A stretch of DNA of 64,000 nucleotides, taken from NCBI RefSeq assembly GCF_058153355.1, contig NZ_CM177019.1, one strand, 5' to 3'. The first letter of the stretch is position 1. Every line of letters begins with the position of its first letter. This document shows, piece after piece, positions 1-3,000 of the stretch. The position numbers are program-made.

Positions 1-3000
1 TACGCTTTCCGATTAATAACCCAAAAGTTGAAGATAAATCCTTTCAATGTAAAAAGCAGATCCGGATTCAATCGGGATCTGCTTTTTCATTCTTAACAAA
101 TCATATTGCTACTGGCTCAGGCCGCCTTATGCCGTCGCGCATAAATATACGGCGCAACGTATCCCTCGCGGCTCACGTCCAGATAATCCGACCACCACTG
201 CATCATGGCTGTACGGGCGTCAAGATGTTCAGCCCGGTGGATATACGCCGCCCGAACGCTGTTGCGCTCCTGATGACTTATCTGCCGCTCCACCGCATCC
301 CGTGACCAGAGCTCAGATTCCACTAATGCGCTACAGGCCATTGCCCGGAAGCCATGCCCGCAAACGTCAGTTTTAGTATCGTAACCTATCAGACGCAGCG
401 CCCGGTTGATGGTGTTTTCACTCATCGGTTTATACGGGTTATGGTCGCCGGGGAACACCAGTTCCAGATGGCCGGAAATTTCGTGTATCTGCTTCAGAAT
501 GGCAATAGCCTGTCGGGAAAGTGGCACAATATGTGGGGTGCGCATTTTCGCGCCGCGACCAGAGAAACGGACTTTCTCAATCGCTTCCCTTGTGGCGGGG
601 ATGATCCAGATTTTGTTTCTGAAATCTATCTCACCCCAGCGGGCAAAGCGCAGCTCGCTGGAACGGATAAACAGGTGGAGAGTCAACACCACCGCCAGCC
701 TCGTAAGCTGTCGTCCCTGCCGATAGTCGCCAATGCGCTCAAACAATTCGGGCAACCGCTCCAGCGGCAGAGCGGGATAGTGATTCTTAACCGGCGGCGC
801 GGTGACGCCTTCCAGATGCTGCGCCGGGTTGTTTTCGGTCAGTCCCTGCTGAACGGCGTAACGCATGATGTTGCAGAGTTGCTGCCGGGTACGGGACGCG
901 ACTTCCAGAAAACCTTTATCCTCAATAACCCGCAGTAACGCAGTGAAATGCTGCGTTTTCAGCGTGGTAACGGGCAGATGGCCAATAGCCGGAAATATAT
1001 GGTTATTCATGCTGGCGAGAATGCGCTCTGCATAATCAGGCGACCACTTTTTGTTGGTTTTGTGCCATGCAAGCGCTACAGCTTTAAAACACTTTTCCGG
1101 TGAAGTGGCGGCTTTTTCATCCATGCGTTGTTGGGCGGGGTTGATATTCTGCGCCAGTAGCTTGCGGATAGCATCGCGCTGTTGCCGGGCTTCAGCGAGA
1201 GAAATCAGCGGATATGCGCCCAGACTGACGCGGGACTCTTTACCACCGAAGCGATACTTGAGATACCAGATACGTGAACCGCCGGGATTGACCAGCAAAT
1301 ACAGACCGTGTGAATCAGACAGTTTGACGGGTTTGGAAGAGGGTTTTAAGTTACGGATTTTTGAATCGTTTAAAGACATTTGGGGGTCACTCCAGAATCG
1401 AACCAACCTGACCCCAAATCTGACCACCAAATTAACCGGATGCGGAGGGAAAACTGAATACGCATCTGGAAAGATTTTCACGCTAACTTATTGAATCAAT
1501 ATCAAATAAAGACTAATAAGGTAGCGTAAGAATCGAAATTTGGCTCCTCTGACTGGACTCGAACCAGTGACATACGGATTAACAGTCCGCCGTTCTACCG
1601 ACTGAACTACAGAGGAATCGTGTGAACGAGGCGCATATTACTTAGCGGTACCTTGTCTGTCAACACCAAATTTCATAAGTTATTTCAACTGGTTAATTAA
1701 TCTGCAAACTTGTTAATTAATGAACATTCGTCGCCGAAAACGAGTCTGTATCATTAGCGTGATGCAGTCTCTGCAAAGGATCTTGTTGATAAAATTGGCA
1801 GAAACGTTGCCACAATGAAGGGAAACGAGGAGCAAAAAGTTCTGGGGCGCTAAAGAAATATTCAGAAAGTACAGCAAAACACTCAGCAGGATCACTGGCA
1901 GCATAAGCATCAATGCTCGCCGCATTCTCGCCAACCAATTCGATTTCTTCCTGAATATTGTTCATTGCAGCATGAAGATCGTGTTCCCAGCCAGCAACCT
2001 CACGCAACGGAATAAAGGGAACTCCGCTGGCGCGATCGCCGTTACGGGTGTCCAGCTTATGAGCGACTTCATGAATAATCAGGTTAAAACCAGAAGCATC
2101 AAAAGAATCTTGTATATCCAACCAGTTCAAAACGATAGGCCCTTGCTGCCAGCTCTGACCTGACTGAACAATACGTTGGTTATGCACCAGACCGATATCG
2201 TCTTCCCATTCGTCATCGACCACAAATGGCGCAGGATAAATTAAGACTTCATGAAAACCATCCAGCCATTCCAGTCCTAACTCCAGAACGGGCAGGCAAA
2301 ATAGAAGTGCTATCCGGCAGCTTCTTAATGAATCCAGCTCAAAGCCCTGTAAGGGAACAAGCCGTTTTTGCTGTAAAAAACGTTCAGCAAGAGTGACTAG
2401 TTTCCTTTGTTCCTGTTCTGTCAGGCACGTTAAAAGGGGAATCGATAGTGCTTCCTGCCAGGGAAGGGCAGTTTGATGTGCTGATTCTTGTACTTTCCAG
2501 GGCCACTTAATCATCGTTTTGCTCGCAAACTCGTCACTTGAACAAAATTGCACGGACAGGGACTGTTAAAATGCCAAATTTCCTGGCATCATGGCAACCA
2601 TCTGAACGGAGAGATGCCGGAGCGGCTGAACGGACCGGTCTCGAAAACCGGAGTGGGGGCAACTCCACCGGGGGTTCAAATCCCCCTCTCTCCGCCAAAA
2701 TTCAATCAATTACACATCATTAAGTCAGTGACAAAAATCACACTTGGAATTACTTGGAATATTTTCTTGGAATATTTTCAGGTAACGGGACATCAAGTGT
2801 CGGTGAAACTTTAACCTTCCTGTCATAGATTAGCACTTGCCCCTCGGTTTTGTGACCAGAGAAAAGTTGCTTATCCCGACTGCTTCCTTCATAGTCTGAA
2901 ATTCCTTTCGCCTTCAGATCATGAAAGGTGAAGTCGGTTAAAATACCTGAAATTTTGCCTGCGCGATTTCTTGCTTCTACCCACATTTCGTTAAAGCCTT

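What the first reader, a model, noticed from the sequence alone, without database searches (positions are those of the whole stretch)
117..1616. P4-type integrase abutting tRNA-Asn marks a second island extending beyond the window
A 420-aa integrase lies 160 bp 3' of an intact tRNA-Asn on the same strand, the classic arrangement for islands at asn-tRNA loci. Only the integrase end is visible, so cargo cannot be assessed.
Basis: partly seen in the sequence, partly recalled or inferred. Interest (0 to 1): 0.35.

Follow-up and report, generated by a model that had tools for sequence, protein, structure and literature searches.

The report
Integrase end of asnT defence island
An intact P4-type integrase next to the asnT tRNA gene marks one end of an ordinary E. 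coli genomic island whose hidden cargo is mostly a decayed plasmid-defence module and a toxin-antitoxin pair.

Summary

**What is in the window**
- Window 117..1379 (-) encodes an intact 420-aa tyrosine integrase. It has the three P4-family domains and all catalytic residues.
- Its start lies 161 bp beyond the 3' end of an intact tRNA-Asn at 1541..1616 (-).
- Synteny with mtfA and serU identifies this tRNA gene as E. coli asnT.
- It is not the Yersinia high-pathogenicity island integrase usually found at asnT. It is 71% identical to that integrase and 51% identical to P4 Int.

**What lies beyond the window**
- Three public contigs encode the identical integrase and match the window at 99.98-100%. 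They extend about 7.1 kb to the left.
- That stretch is island cargo, not core yeeJ. It holds a second integrase-like gene, a PemK/MazE pair and a small SfsB/Ner-like regulator.
- It also holds a large helicase-nuclease gene, broken by a 5-bp frameshift and cut by an IS66-family element.

**Sister islands**
- Islands whose integrases are 93-98% identical sit at asnT, asnU or asnV in other E. coli.
- Two of them are bounded by perfect 17-bp repeats of the tRNA 3' end.
- Their cargo is defence genes: a divergent DdmDE-like pair plus Gabija, or Avs10/Erebus.

This is a textbook kind of element and of low interest. The unannotated DdmDE-like clade is the only notable side result.

The parts
117..1379 (-). 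int: intact 420-aa P4-family tyrosine integrase, the attL-proximal gene of the island
   Evidence: ORF and its translation. Pfam finds Arm-DNA-bind_3 at residues 3-86, Phage_int_M at 98-191 and Phage_integrase at 226-383. The catalytic residues R239, K278, H342, R345, H369 and Y379 are invariant against P4 Int, HPI Int and the sister integrases. Identity is 71% to HPI Int and 51% to P4 Int. The N-terminal 81 residues match the solved arm-binding domain in 3JTZ (titled 'Integrase | CP4-like integrase') at E=5e-35.
1380..1539 (-). Island-side arm of attL, between the tRNA end and the int start. Inferred to hold the int promoter and arm-type integrase sites.
   Evidence: The layout matches P4, where the attP core lies about 150 bp upstream of int with arm repeats on either side. 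This stretch is conserved with the sister island in MS20657 (97% over window 1..1623). No specific arm motif or promoter could be identified here.
1540..1556 (-). 17-bp attO core, CCAGTCAGAGGAGCCAA: the 3' end of tRNA-Asn plus one base. This is the proximal direct repeat and crossover region.
   Evidence: It is the only copy in the window. The same 17-mer flanks the sister islands at both ends in MS20657 (L001 8205 and 21540) and in LF82 (L017 6774 and 25351). It is the attO reported for HPI-type islands (PMC2801613).
1541..1616 (-). asnT: intact tRNA-Asn (GTT), the integration target
   Evidence: ARAGORN. The sequence is 99.8% identical to the empty-site allele of strain 167.
1635..1663 (-). 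Sigma-70-like promoter (TTGACA-17-TAATAT) upstream of asnT. This is core DNA, not island.
   Evidence: Consensus scan, 10 of 12 matches. It is a consensus match only.
1..116 (.). Island DNA downstream of the int stop, with a terminator-like hairpin at about 55-90. It continues into the Integrase_1 gene outside the window.
   Evidence: Terminator-like sites at 61-81. The stretch is contiguous at 100% identity with contigs L004 and L005, which run on into the cargo.
1717..2514 (-). mtfA: core gene that fixes the locus as asnT and bounds the island on the right
   Evidence: NCBIfam equivalog PRK15410, 541 bits, covering residues 14-278 of the long ORF. It is present at 95-100% identity in 5,419 of 5,426 complete E. 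coli genomes.

Best explanation
Window 1..1556 is the attL end of a small genomic island with no conjugation genes, integrated into the 3' end of the E. coli asnT tRNA gene. By analogy with its sisters it is about 13-19 kb long.

**The integrase.** Its first gene is an intact P4-family tyrosine integrase. Its closest characterised relative is the HPI integrase.

**Inferred mechanism, by homology.** The N-terminal arm-binding domain and the core-binding and catalytic domains bring together the island's attP and the 17-20 bp 3' end of any of the four identical asn tRNA genes. Strand exchange within CCAGTCAGAGGAGCCAA regenerates an intact tRNA. It leaves the integrase about 160 bp from the tRNA and a second copy of the 17-mer at the far border.

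**Shown.**
- The integrase is intact and sits at a precise junction with the tRNA.
- At least 7.1 kb of accessory cargo lies beyond the window.
- Sister islands occupy asnT, asnU and asnV, and two of them have perfect flanking repeats.
- The cargo differs between sisters.

**Cargo in this lineage.** It comprises a second recombinase-like protein (Integrase_1), a PemK/MazE toxin-antitoxin pair, an SfsB/Ner-like regulator and a DdmDE-like module. The DdmDE-like module is a helicase-nuclease gene paired, in sister islands, with a gene for an Argonaute-like protein; in this lineage only the helicase-nuclease gene has been seen, and it is inactivated by a 5-bp frameshift and an IS66-family insertion.

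**Not shown.** Present-day excision, and the far border in this genome.
For: **Anatomy.**

**Empty site.** An island-free strain shows yeeJ-asnT-mtfA, and homology with it ends at window 1537.

**Leftward extension.** It comes from contigs encoding the identical protein, matching the window at 99.98-100%.

**Sister integrases.** They are 98, 96 and 93% identical in protein sequence. They sit at asnU (MS20657), asnV (EC28; LF82 also has an island at asnV, its integrase a pseudogene) and asnT (F2_81).

**Flanking repeats.** Perfect 17-bp repeats (20 bp in MS20657) bound a 13.35-kb island in MS20657 and an 18.6-kb island in LF82. The 17-mer is identical to the published attO of HPI-type islands.

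**Composition.** It is mosaic: int 54% GC, Integrase_1 59%, the DdmD-like gene 44%, the whole window 50%.

**Cargo identity.**
- A profile of the 1300-aa family hits V. cholerae DdmD at E=2.4e-19. The match includes Walker B, SAT, QxxGRxxR and the nuclease lysine, which aligns with DdmD K1102.
- An AlphaFold model of the 818-aa partner (pLDDT 83.7) matches DdmE best (E=4e-20 to 2e-16), then Argonautes.
- The pair is adjacent in E. coli, Vibrio, cyanobacteria and Spirochaeta.

**Decay.** A 5-bp insertion shifts the frame at codon 227. All three contigs end at or near an IS66-type terminal repeat, which L005 reaches. The same repeat starts an IS66-family element in the window at 40992.
Against: - The far end of this genome's own island is not visible. 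All three extension contigs stop in the same gene, and none has a second attO copy. Size, distal repeat and remaining cargo are therefore extrapolated from sisters.
- No excisionase (recombination directionality factor) was identified.
- No arm-type repeats or int promoter could be pinned down in the attL arm.
- Related copies show decay. int is a pseudogene in LF82 and the distal repeat is lost in EC28. Mobility today is therefore uncertain.
- The DdmDE assignment rests on remote profile and fold similarity. PADLOC, Pfam and NCBIfam give no hits.
Confidence: 0.9

Rival explanations
1. It is the integrase of the Yersinia high-pathogenicity island (HPI; yersiniabactin). HPI is the island most often found at asnT in E. 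coli.
For: The locus is the same and the protein is also 420 aa. It is 71% identical to HPI Int, and the attO is the same. About 2,150 E. coli genomes carry a 60-80% DNA match that is probably the HPI int.
Against: 71% protein identity is far below the near-identity among HPI integrases. In HPI, ybtS follows int directly. Here int is followed by an Integrase_1 gene, PemK/MazE and a DdmD-like gene, with no ybt, irp or fyuA genes in 7.1 kb.
Confidence: 0.02
2. It is a P4-like satellite prophage, or a remnant of one, rather than a plain genomic island.
For: The integrase is 51% identical to P4 Int, with the same att-int layout. EC28 has a short Ash-family ORF. P4-like elements are known carriers of defence hotspots; this last point is from my own knowledge.
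Against: Annotated sister islands are only 13-19 kb between their repeats. No alpha primase-helicase, sid, psu, delta or cos functions are annotated in them or detected by Pfam. The target is asn tDNA, whereas P4 uses leuX (my own knowledge).
Confidence: 0.05
3. The island is real but is now a fixed, immobile remnant. The integrase ORF survives while the element no longer excises.
For: The cargo is decaying in this lineage, with a frameshift and an IS66 insertion. In sisters, int has an internal stop in LF82, the distal repeat is deleted in EC28, and rearrangements near IS3 copies appear in F2_81. No excisionase was recognised.
Against: The integrase is full length with every catalytic residue. 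Its protein sequence is identical in three independent assemblies. Close relatives occupy three different asn tDNAs, two with perfect repeats. This argues for recent site-specific movement of the family.
Confidence: 0.35
4. It is an orphan integrase gene beside asnT with no island behind it.
For: Only the integrase is visible inside the window.
Against: Contigs matching the window at 99.98-100% carry 7.1 kb of non-core genes beyond it. The empty site has yeeJ there.
Confidence: 0.01

Closest known systems
HPI (Yersinia high-pathogenicity island) integrase and its attO system at asn tRNA genes
   Same: Both are 420-aa P4-family integrases, 71% identical. The 17-bp attO CCAGTCAGAGGAGCCAA is the same. 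Both use several asn tDNAs. The integrase sits about 160 bp from the tRNA 3' end in both. The arm-binding domain is homologous to the solved structure 3JTZ.
   Different: The cargo differs: there is no yersiniabactin locus. The integrase belongs to a separate clade. This island is much smaller than HPI, at about 13-19 kb between repeats in the sisters.
Bacteriophage P4 integrase and attP
   Same: The domain architecture and catalytic residues are the same. Identity is 51% over the full length. The att core lies just upstream of int.
   Different: No P4 replication or capsid-hijacking genes are present. The tRNA target differs. The C-terminus is 20 residues shorter.
The unnamed asn-tDNA islands of E. 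coli LF82, NRG857c, EC28 and MS20657
   Same: The backbone is the same: int, Integrase_1, a toxin-antitoxin pair, an SfsB-like HTH and a 155-aa ORF. Over the 7.1-kb extension, DNA identity is 95.5-96% to LF82 and EC28, which carry the same DdmD-like gene (99% identical to EC28's). MS20657 matches only part of the backbone (42% of the extension, 90.6%)..
   Different: In the window's lineage the island sits at asnT, not asnV or asnU. The integrase is intact here but a pseudogene in LF82. The DdmD-like gene here is frameshifted and cut by an IS.
DdmDE (Vibrio cholerae, Lactobacillus casei) and the ApsAB family of antiplasmid systems (PMC11096173; bioRxiv 10.1101/2024.05.10.593530)
   Same: This concerns the cargo only. 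It is a two-gene operon. One gene encodes an SF2 helicase fused to a PD-(D/E)xK nuclease; the other encodes a protein with an Argonaute-like fold. It is carried on integrase-bearing islands next to other defence systems.
   Different: The relationship is very distant, detectable only by profile or fold. The PADLOC library gives no hit of any kind. The proteins are larger than V. cholerae DdmD and DdmE (1300/818 aa against about 1190/690). BLASTP shows no similarity to the ApsA and ApsB N-terminal fragments that were available. Activity is untested.
ROD21-like (EARL) islands of Enterobacteriaceae
   Same: They are integrase-bearing islands with a conserved excision/integration module (PMC8844411).
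   Different: No SEN1998/AlpA-type excisionase was found in the backbone. I made no direct sequence comparison with ROD21.

Membership tests
P4-family tyrosine integrases | Three-domain architecture: arm-type DNA-binding domain, central core-binding domain and catalytic domain | tested here: met
   Pfam PF13356, PF22022 and PF00589, all above their gathering scores. NCBIfam PRK09692 'integrase domain-containing protein' scores 229.7 bits, below its 434-bit cut-off.
P4-family tyrosine integrases | Catalytic residues R-K-H-x-x-R-H-Y present | tested here: met
   R239, K278, H342, R345, H369 and Y379 are invariant in an alignment with P4 Int and HPI Int.
P4-family tyrosine integrases | Full-length sequence similarity to P4 Int | tested here: met
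   51% identity over 98% of the query, E=3e-129.
P4-family tyrosine integrases | Site-specific recombination activity | not testable with these tools
   This needs an excision or integration assay.
asn-tDNA (attO-type) genomic islands | Inserted at the 3' end of an asn tRNA gene, leaving the tRNA intact, with the integrase adjacent and in the same orientation | tested here: met
   Homology with the empty site ends 4 bp beyond the tRNA.
asn-tDNA (attO-type) genomic islands | 17-bp direct repeat of the tRNA 3' end at the distal border | tested here: inconclusive
   There is no second copy in the window or in the 7.1-kb extension, so the border lies beyond the contig break. Sister islands have perfect repeats in MS20657 and LF82. 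EC28 has none.
asn-tDNA (attO-type) genomic islands | Accessory cargo that is absent from the same site in other strains | tested here: met
   Cargo. The empty site is in strain 167. The cargo is found in only 50 of 5,426 complete E. coli genomes.
Yersinia HPI | Yersiniabactin genes (ybtS ... fyuA) follow the integrase | tested here: not met
   The extension carries other genes.
P4-like satellite prophage | Alpha primase-helicase and a sid/psu/delta capsid-hijacking module | tested here: not met
   None is annotated or detected by Pfam in the extension or in complete sister islands. Only a short Ash-family ORF is present.
DdmDE / ApsAB antiplasmid systems (cargo, outside the window) | Large protein with SF2 helicase motifs and a C-terminal PD-(D/E)xK nuclease | tested here: met
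   Invariant GxGKT, DEFD, SAT and QxxGRxER motifs, and D1173...D1184-A-K1186. The profile hits DdmD at E=2.4e-19, with K1186 aligned to DdmD K1102.
DdmDE / ApsAB antiplasmid systems (cargo, outside the window) | Adjacent partner with a DdmE-type Argonaute-like fold | tested here: met
   The model has pLDDT 83.7. The top PDB matches are DdmE chains (E=4e-20 to 2e-16, TM-score normalised by target length 0.56-0.63), followed by Argonautes. Adjacency is conserved across phyla. Sequence profiles alone find nothing.
DdmDE / ApsAB antiplasmid systems (cargo, outside the window) | Intact reading frames in this lineage | tested here: not met
   There is a 5-bp insertion with a frameshift at codon 227, and an IS66-type terminal repeat at the contig ends.
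DdmDE / ApsAB antiplasmid systems (cargo, outside the window) | Eliminates plasmids in vivo | not testable with these tools
   This needs a plasmid-stability assay with an intact operon, for example from LF82 or EC28.
ROD21-like (EARL) islands | Conserved SEN1998-type excisionase and an integrase in the EARL clade | not tested
   No ROD21 sequences were fetched. No AlpA-family ORF appeared in Pfam scans of the backbone.

The most novel reading that the evidence does not exclude
The island family's main cargo may be an unrecognised, deeply divergent clade of DdmDE-type plasmid-defence systems. It pairs a 1300-aa helicase-nuclease with an 818-aa catalytically silent Argonaute-like protein.

The pair is intact in strains such as LF82 and EC28. 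It is conserved as a pair from Enterobacterales and Vibrio to cyanobacteria and spirochaetes. Pfam, NCBIfam and PADLOC 2.0 do not detect it.

If active, it would be a chromosomal determinant of plasmid carriage in B2-type E. coli that travels between asn tRNA genes. In the window's own lineage it is a pseudogene.
Probability: 0.45. Interest if true: 0.45.

Novelty: new member of a known kind. Interest (0 to 1): 0.2.

Why it matters
In itself it matters little. tRNA-linked P4-type integrases are the textbook signature of genomic islands, and the asn tRNA genes of enterobacteria are well-known hotspots.

The check is useful in three ways:
- It shows that this asnT island is not the virulence-associated HPI. 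That matters for anyone inferring yersiniabactin from an asnT-linked integrase.
- It places the element in a small family of modular defence islands that move among the four identical asn tRNA genes.
- It points to a DdmDE-like gene pair that current annotation resources label 'hypothetical'. That pair could be tested for antiplasmid activity in strains where it is intact.

Tried and rejected
- **Source genome in the complete E. coli collection.** No record matches window 1..2700 at 99% or more over its full length. Extension through complete genomes was therefore impossible. The exact-protein look-up solved this.
- **Arm-type repeats in the attL arm.** Only 8-12-nt two-copy repeats of the sort expected by chance were found.
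- **Promoter scan for int.** The only hit is the asnT promoter.
- **Family searches on the two large cargo proteins.** PADLOC, Pfam, NCBIfam and single-sequence PDB searches gave no hits.
- **Profile of the 818-aa family against PDB sequences.** Only noise. The relationship appeared only through the predicted fold.
- **BLASTP against ApsA and ApsB of CNR81D10.** No similarity, but only the first 384 residues are held in the supplement.
- **Looking for the E. coli proteins in the ApsAB paper's homologue tables.** Searches by accession, organism and N-terminal peptide found nothing. The stored tables may be truncated.
- **Distal attO in EC28.** Absent within 20 kb, apparently deleted together with half of gajA at an IS3 insertion.
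- **Considered and rejected.** HPI, an orphan integrase and a P4 satellite; see the rival explanations.
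Full report
**1. The observation**

ARAGORN reports two tRNAs in the window: tRNA-Asn (GTT) at 1541..1616 on the minus strand and tRNA-Ser (CGA) at 2608..2697 on the plus strand.

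A minus-strand ORF runs from 1481 (GTG) to 117. The ATG at 1379 gives 420 aa. This is the real start, because the HPI integrase and all sister integrases are 420 aa and align from residue 1 without gaps.

The tRNA 3' end (1541) and the ATG (1379) are 161 bp apart on the same strand.

**2. Which locus this is**

The ORF at 1717..2514 (-) is MtfA (NCBIfam equivalog, 541 bits). It is present at 95-100% identity in 5,419 of 5,426 complete E. coli genomes.

E. coli strain 167 has an identical mtfA. Its gene order is yeeJ (Ig-like protein) - tRNA-Asn - mtfA - tRNA-Ser - yodB, with neither insertion. The tRNA is therefore asnT.

Homology between that empty site and the window runs from 1537 to 2697 at 99.8% and stops at both ends.
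- On the left it stops four bases past the tRNA-Asn 3' end, where the island starts.
- On the right it stops at the 3' end of serU, where a prophage starts.

**3. The protein**

- Pfam finds the arm-binding, central and catalytic domains, all above threshold.
- The six catalytic residues (R239, K278, H342, R345, H369, Y379) are invariant against P4 Int, HPI Int and three sister integrases.
- Identity is 51% to P4 Int over 98% of the length.
- Identity is 71% to the HPI integrase taken from a genome where it precedes ybtS.
- The first 81 residues match the solved arm-binding domain in 3JTZ (titled 'Integrase | CP4-like integrase'; E=5e-35).

'P4-type' is right as a family label. The nearest characterised relative is HPI Int, but this is a different clade. 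In complete E. coli genomes, only 36 carry it at 90% DNA identity or more, 469 at 80-90%, and about 2,150 at 60-80%, probably the HPI gene.

**4. Extending the window**

An exact-sequence look-up of the 420-aa protein returned three contigs: two NCBI assemblies and one Logan run.

They match window 1..11377, 1..7874 and 1..1564 at 99.98-100%. The two longer ones include mtfA and the serU prophage, so they come from the same lineage. All three run about 7.1 kb further left.

That stretch encodes the following:
- a 295-aa Integrase_1/Phage_int_SAM_2 protein;
- a PemK/MazE toxin-antitoxin pair;
- a 68-aa HTH_35 protein resembling SfsB/Ner;
- a 155-aa ORF with no family;
- a large gene with a Walker A motif, split into 257-aa and 647+-aa ORFs.

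Composition is mosaic: int 54% GC, Integrase_1 59%, the large gene 44%, the whole window 50%.

**5. Why all three contigs stop at the same place**

L005, the contig that reaches furthest, ends in GTAAGCGGCTCGCCAGAACCGTAT; the other two stop about 25-33 bp short of it, inside the same gene. The matches to LF82 and EC28 stop 23 bases short of the end of L005.

The same 24-mer occurs once in the window, at 40992. There it begins a three-ORF element of 142, 115 and 523 aa, an arrangement typical of IS66-family elements.

The large cargo gene is therefore interrupted by a multi-copy IS66-family element, which breaks short-read assemblies.

Compared with the intact 1300-aa allele of strain EC28 (99% DNA identity), the gene also carries a 5-bp insertion that shifts the frame at codon 227. 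The gene is a pseudogene in this lineage.

**6. Sister islands**

The 7.1-kb cargo stretch occurs in only 50 of 5,426 complete E. coli genomes, and in 23 of them at 80% coverage or more.

| Strain | Integrase identity | Site | Size and repeats | Cargo |
|---|---|---|---|---|
| MS20657 | 98% aa | asnU, next to yeeO | 13.35 kb; perfect repeats (17-mer attO, 20 bp shared) | GajA-like AAA ATPase, EruA (Erebus/Avs10 NACHT protein), HEPN protein, RelE pair |
| LF82 | pseudogene (internal stop) | asnV, next to nac | 18.6 kb; perfect 17-bp repeats | IS200C, ISEc1, 1300-aa and 818-aa pair, intact Gabija (gajA/gajB) |
| EC28 | 96% aa | asnV | IS3 has truncated gajA and removed the distal repeat | same island type as LF82 |
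| F2_81 | 93% aa | asnT | rearranged, with IS3 copies nearby | Erebus-type cargo |

The family has a common backbone: int, Integrase_1, a toxin-antitoxin pair, the HTH and the 155-aa ORF. Its defence cargo is exchangeable, and it uses at least three of the four identical asn tRNA genes.

The 17-mer is the published attO of HPI-type islands (PMC2801613). No conjugation genes were seen in any copy.

**7. The large cargo genes**

The 1300-aa and 818-aa proteins have no Pfam, NCBIfam, PADLOC or direct PDB sequence hits. All database homologues are labelled 'hypothetical'.

They are a fixed adjacent pair in E. coli, Vibrio, a cyanobacterium and a Spirochaeta.

An alignment of 28 homologues shows invariant GxGKT, DEFD, SAT and QxxGRxER motifs and a C-terminal D...D-A-K motif.

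Its profile hits V. cholerae DdmD at E=2.4e-19 in two long stretches. K1186 aligns with DdmD K1102. Mutating that residue to alanine abolishes plasmid elimination by DdmDE (bioRxiv 10.1101/2024.05.10.593530).

An AlphaFold model of the 818-aa partner (34-sequence alignment, pLDDT 83.7, pTM 0.79) matches DdmE from L. casei and V. cholerae best. E-values are 4e-20 to 2e-16 and TM-scores normalised by target length 0.56-0.63. Argonautes follow.

The pair is therefore a distant DdmDE-type module. By analogy, the Argonaute-like protein would use DNA guides to find plasmid DNA and hand it to the helicase-nuclease.

A 2024 paper on ApsAB already describes a broad ApsA-to-DdmD family on E. coli genomic islands (PMC11096173). 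I could not find this particular clade in its tables. The N-terminal fragments of ApsA and ApsB held there show no BLASTP similarity.

**8. Mechanism and status**

Shown:
- an intact integrase at a base-precise tRNA junction;
- accessory cargo behind it;
- sister islands bounded by attO repeats at different asn tDNAs.

Inferred by homology: Int-mediated attP x attB recombination within the 17-20-bp tRNA 3' end, which regenerates the tRNA.

Unknown:
- the excisionase;
- the arm sites and the int promoter;
- the distal border of this genome's own copy;
- whether the element still moves.

Cargo decay here and in the sisters makes a fixed remnant plausible; I put that at about one in three.

**9. 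Verdict**

The element is a new member of a well-known kind: an asn-tDNA island with an HPI-like integrase. It is not HPI, not a P4 satellite and not an orphan gene.

Interest is low, at 0.2. The only point worth following is the unannotated DdmDE-like clade, which lies outside the window and is inactivated in this lineage.

Noticed in passing
window 2698..49414: A lambdoid-type prophage of about 46.7 kb is inserted at the 3' end of serU (tRNA-Ser CGA). Its integrase is at 2750..3775 (-). A 62-bp repeat of the serU 3' end (about 2634-2695) recurs at 49353..49414 with 96.8% identity. The empty-site strain 167 goes straight from serU to yodB.
   Followed up: partly
window 40992..~43400: An IS66-family element lies inside the prophage. 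Its terminal repeat GTAAGCGGCTCGCCAGAACCGTAT is at 40992. Three minus-strand ORFs of 142, 115 and 523 aa follow, the usual tnpA/tnpB/tnpC arrangement. Another copy of the same IS cuts the DdmD-like gene of the asnT island and breaks the draft assemblies there.
   Followed up: partly
L006:24592-30954 (EC28); L017:14901-21263 (LF82); L005:5993-8685 (window lineage, pseudogene): A 1300-aa and 818-aa gene pair is annotated 'hypothetical' everywhere and missed by Pfam, NCBIfam and PADLOC. By profile it is a distant DdmD-like helicase-nuclease (E=2.4e-19). By predicted fold its partner is a DdmE-like Argonaute (E=4e-20). The pair is conserved from Enterobacterales to cyanobacteria and Spirochaeta.
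   Followed up: yes
L001:8338-15826 (MS20657); L008:26676-31133 (F2_81): The same island backbone carries a different defence cargo in other strains. It comprises an EruA NACHT protein (Erebus/Avs10; NCBIfam equivalog, 1128 bits), a LA2681-family HEPN protein and a GajA-like AAA ATPase.
   Followed up: partly
L005:2142-3029 (about 0.7 kb left of window position 1): A second recombinase-like gene (295 aa; Pfam Integrase_1 plus Phage_int_SAM_2; GC 59%) is conserved next to int in every sister island. Its role is unknown; it could be a resolvase, an accessory recombinase or a remnant.
   Followed up: no
L008 (F2_81) 18442..33923: In strain F2_81 the asnT island is followed by a truncated yeeO and another tRNA-Asn instead of yeeJ, with IS3 copies at the breakpoints. 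This suggests an inversion or rearrangement within the asn tRNA gene cluster region.
   Followed up: no
window 57520..60647: The core region downstream of the prophage (the porin, drpB, yedJ and dcm neighbourhood in strain 167) is only 88.8% identical to strain 167. Adjacent core DNA is 96.6% identical, and the mtfA region is 99.8-100% identical. This is a locally divergent or recombined segment.
   Followed up: no
L015:14626-16129 (cyanobacterium) and L006:31092-33200 (EC28): In both a cyanobacterial locus and E. coli EC28, the gene after the DdmDE-like pair is an AAA_15/GajA-type ATPase truncated by a transposase insertion. It is unclear whether this is coincidence or a recurrent link between the pair and an OLD/Gabija-type ATPase.
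   Followed up: no
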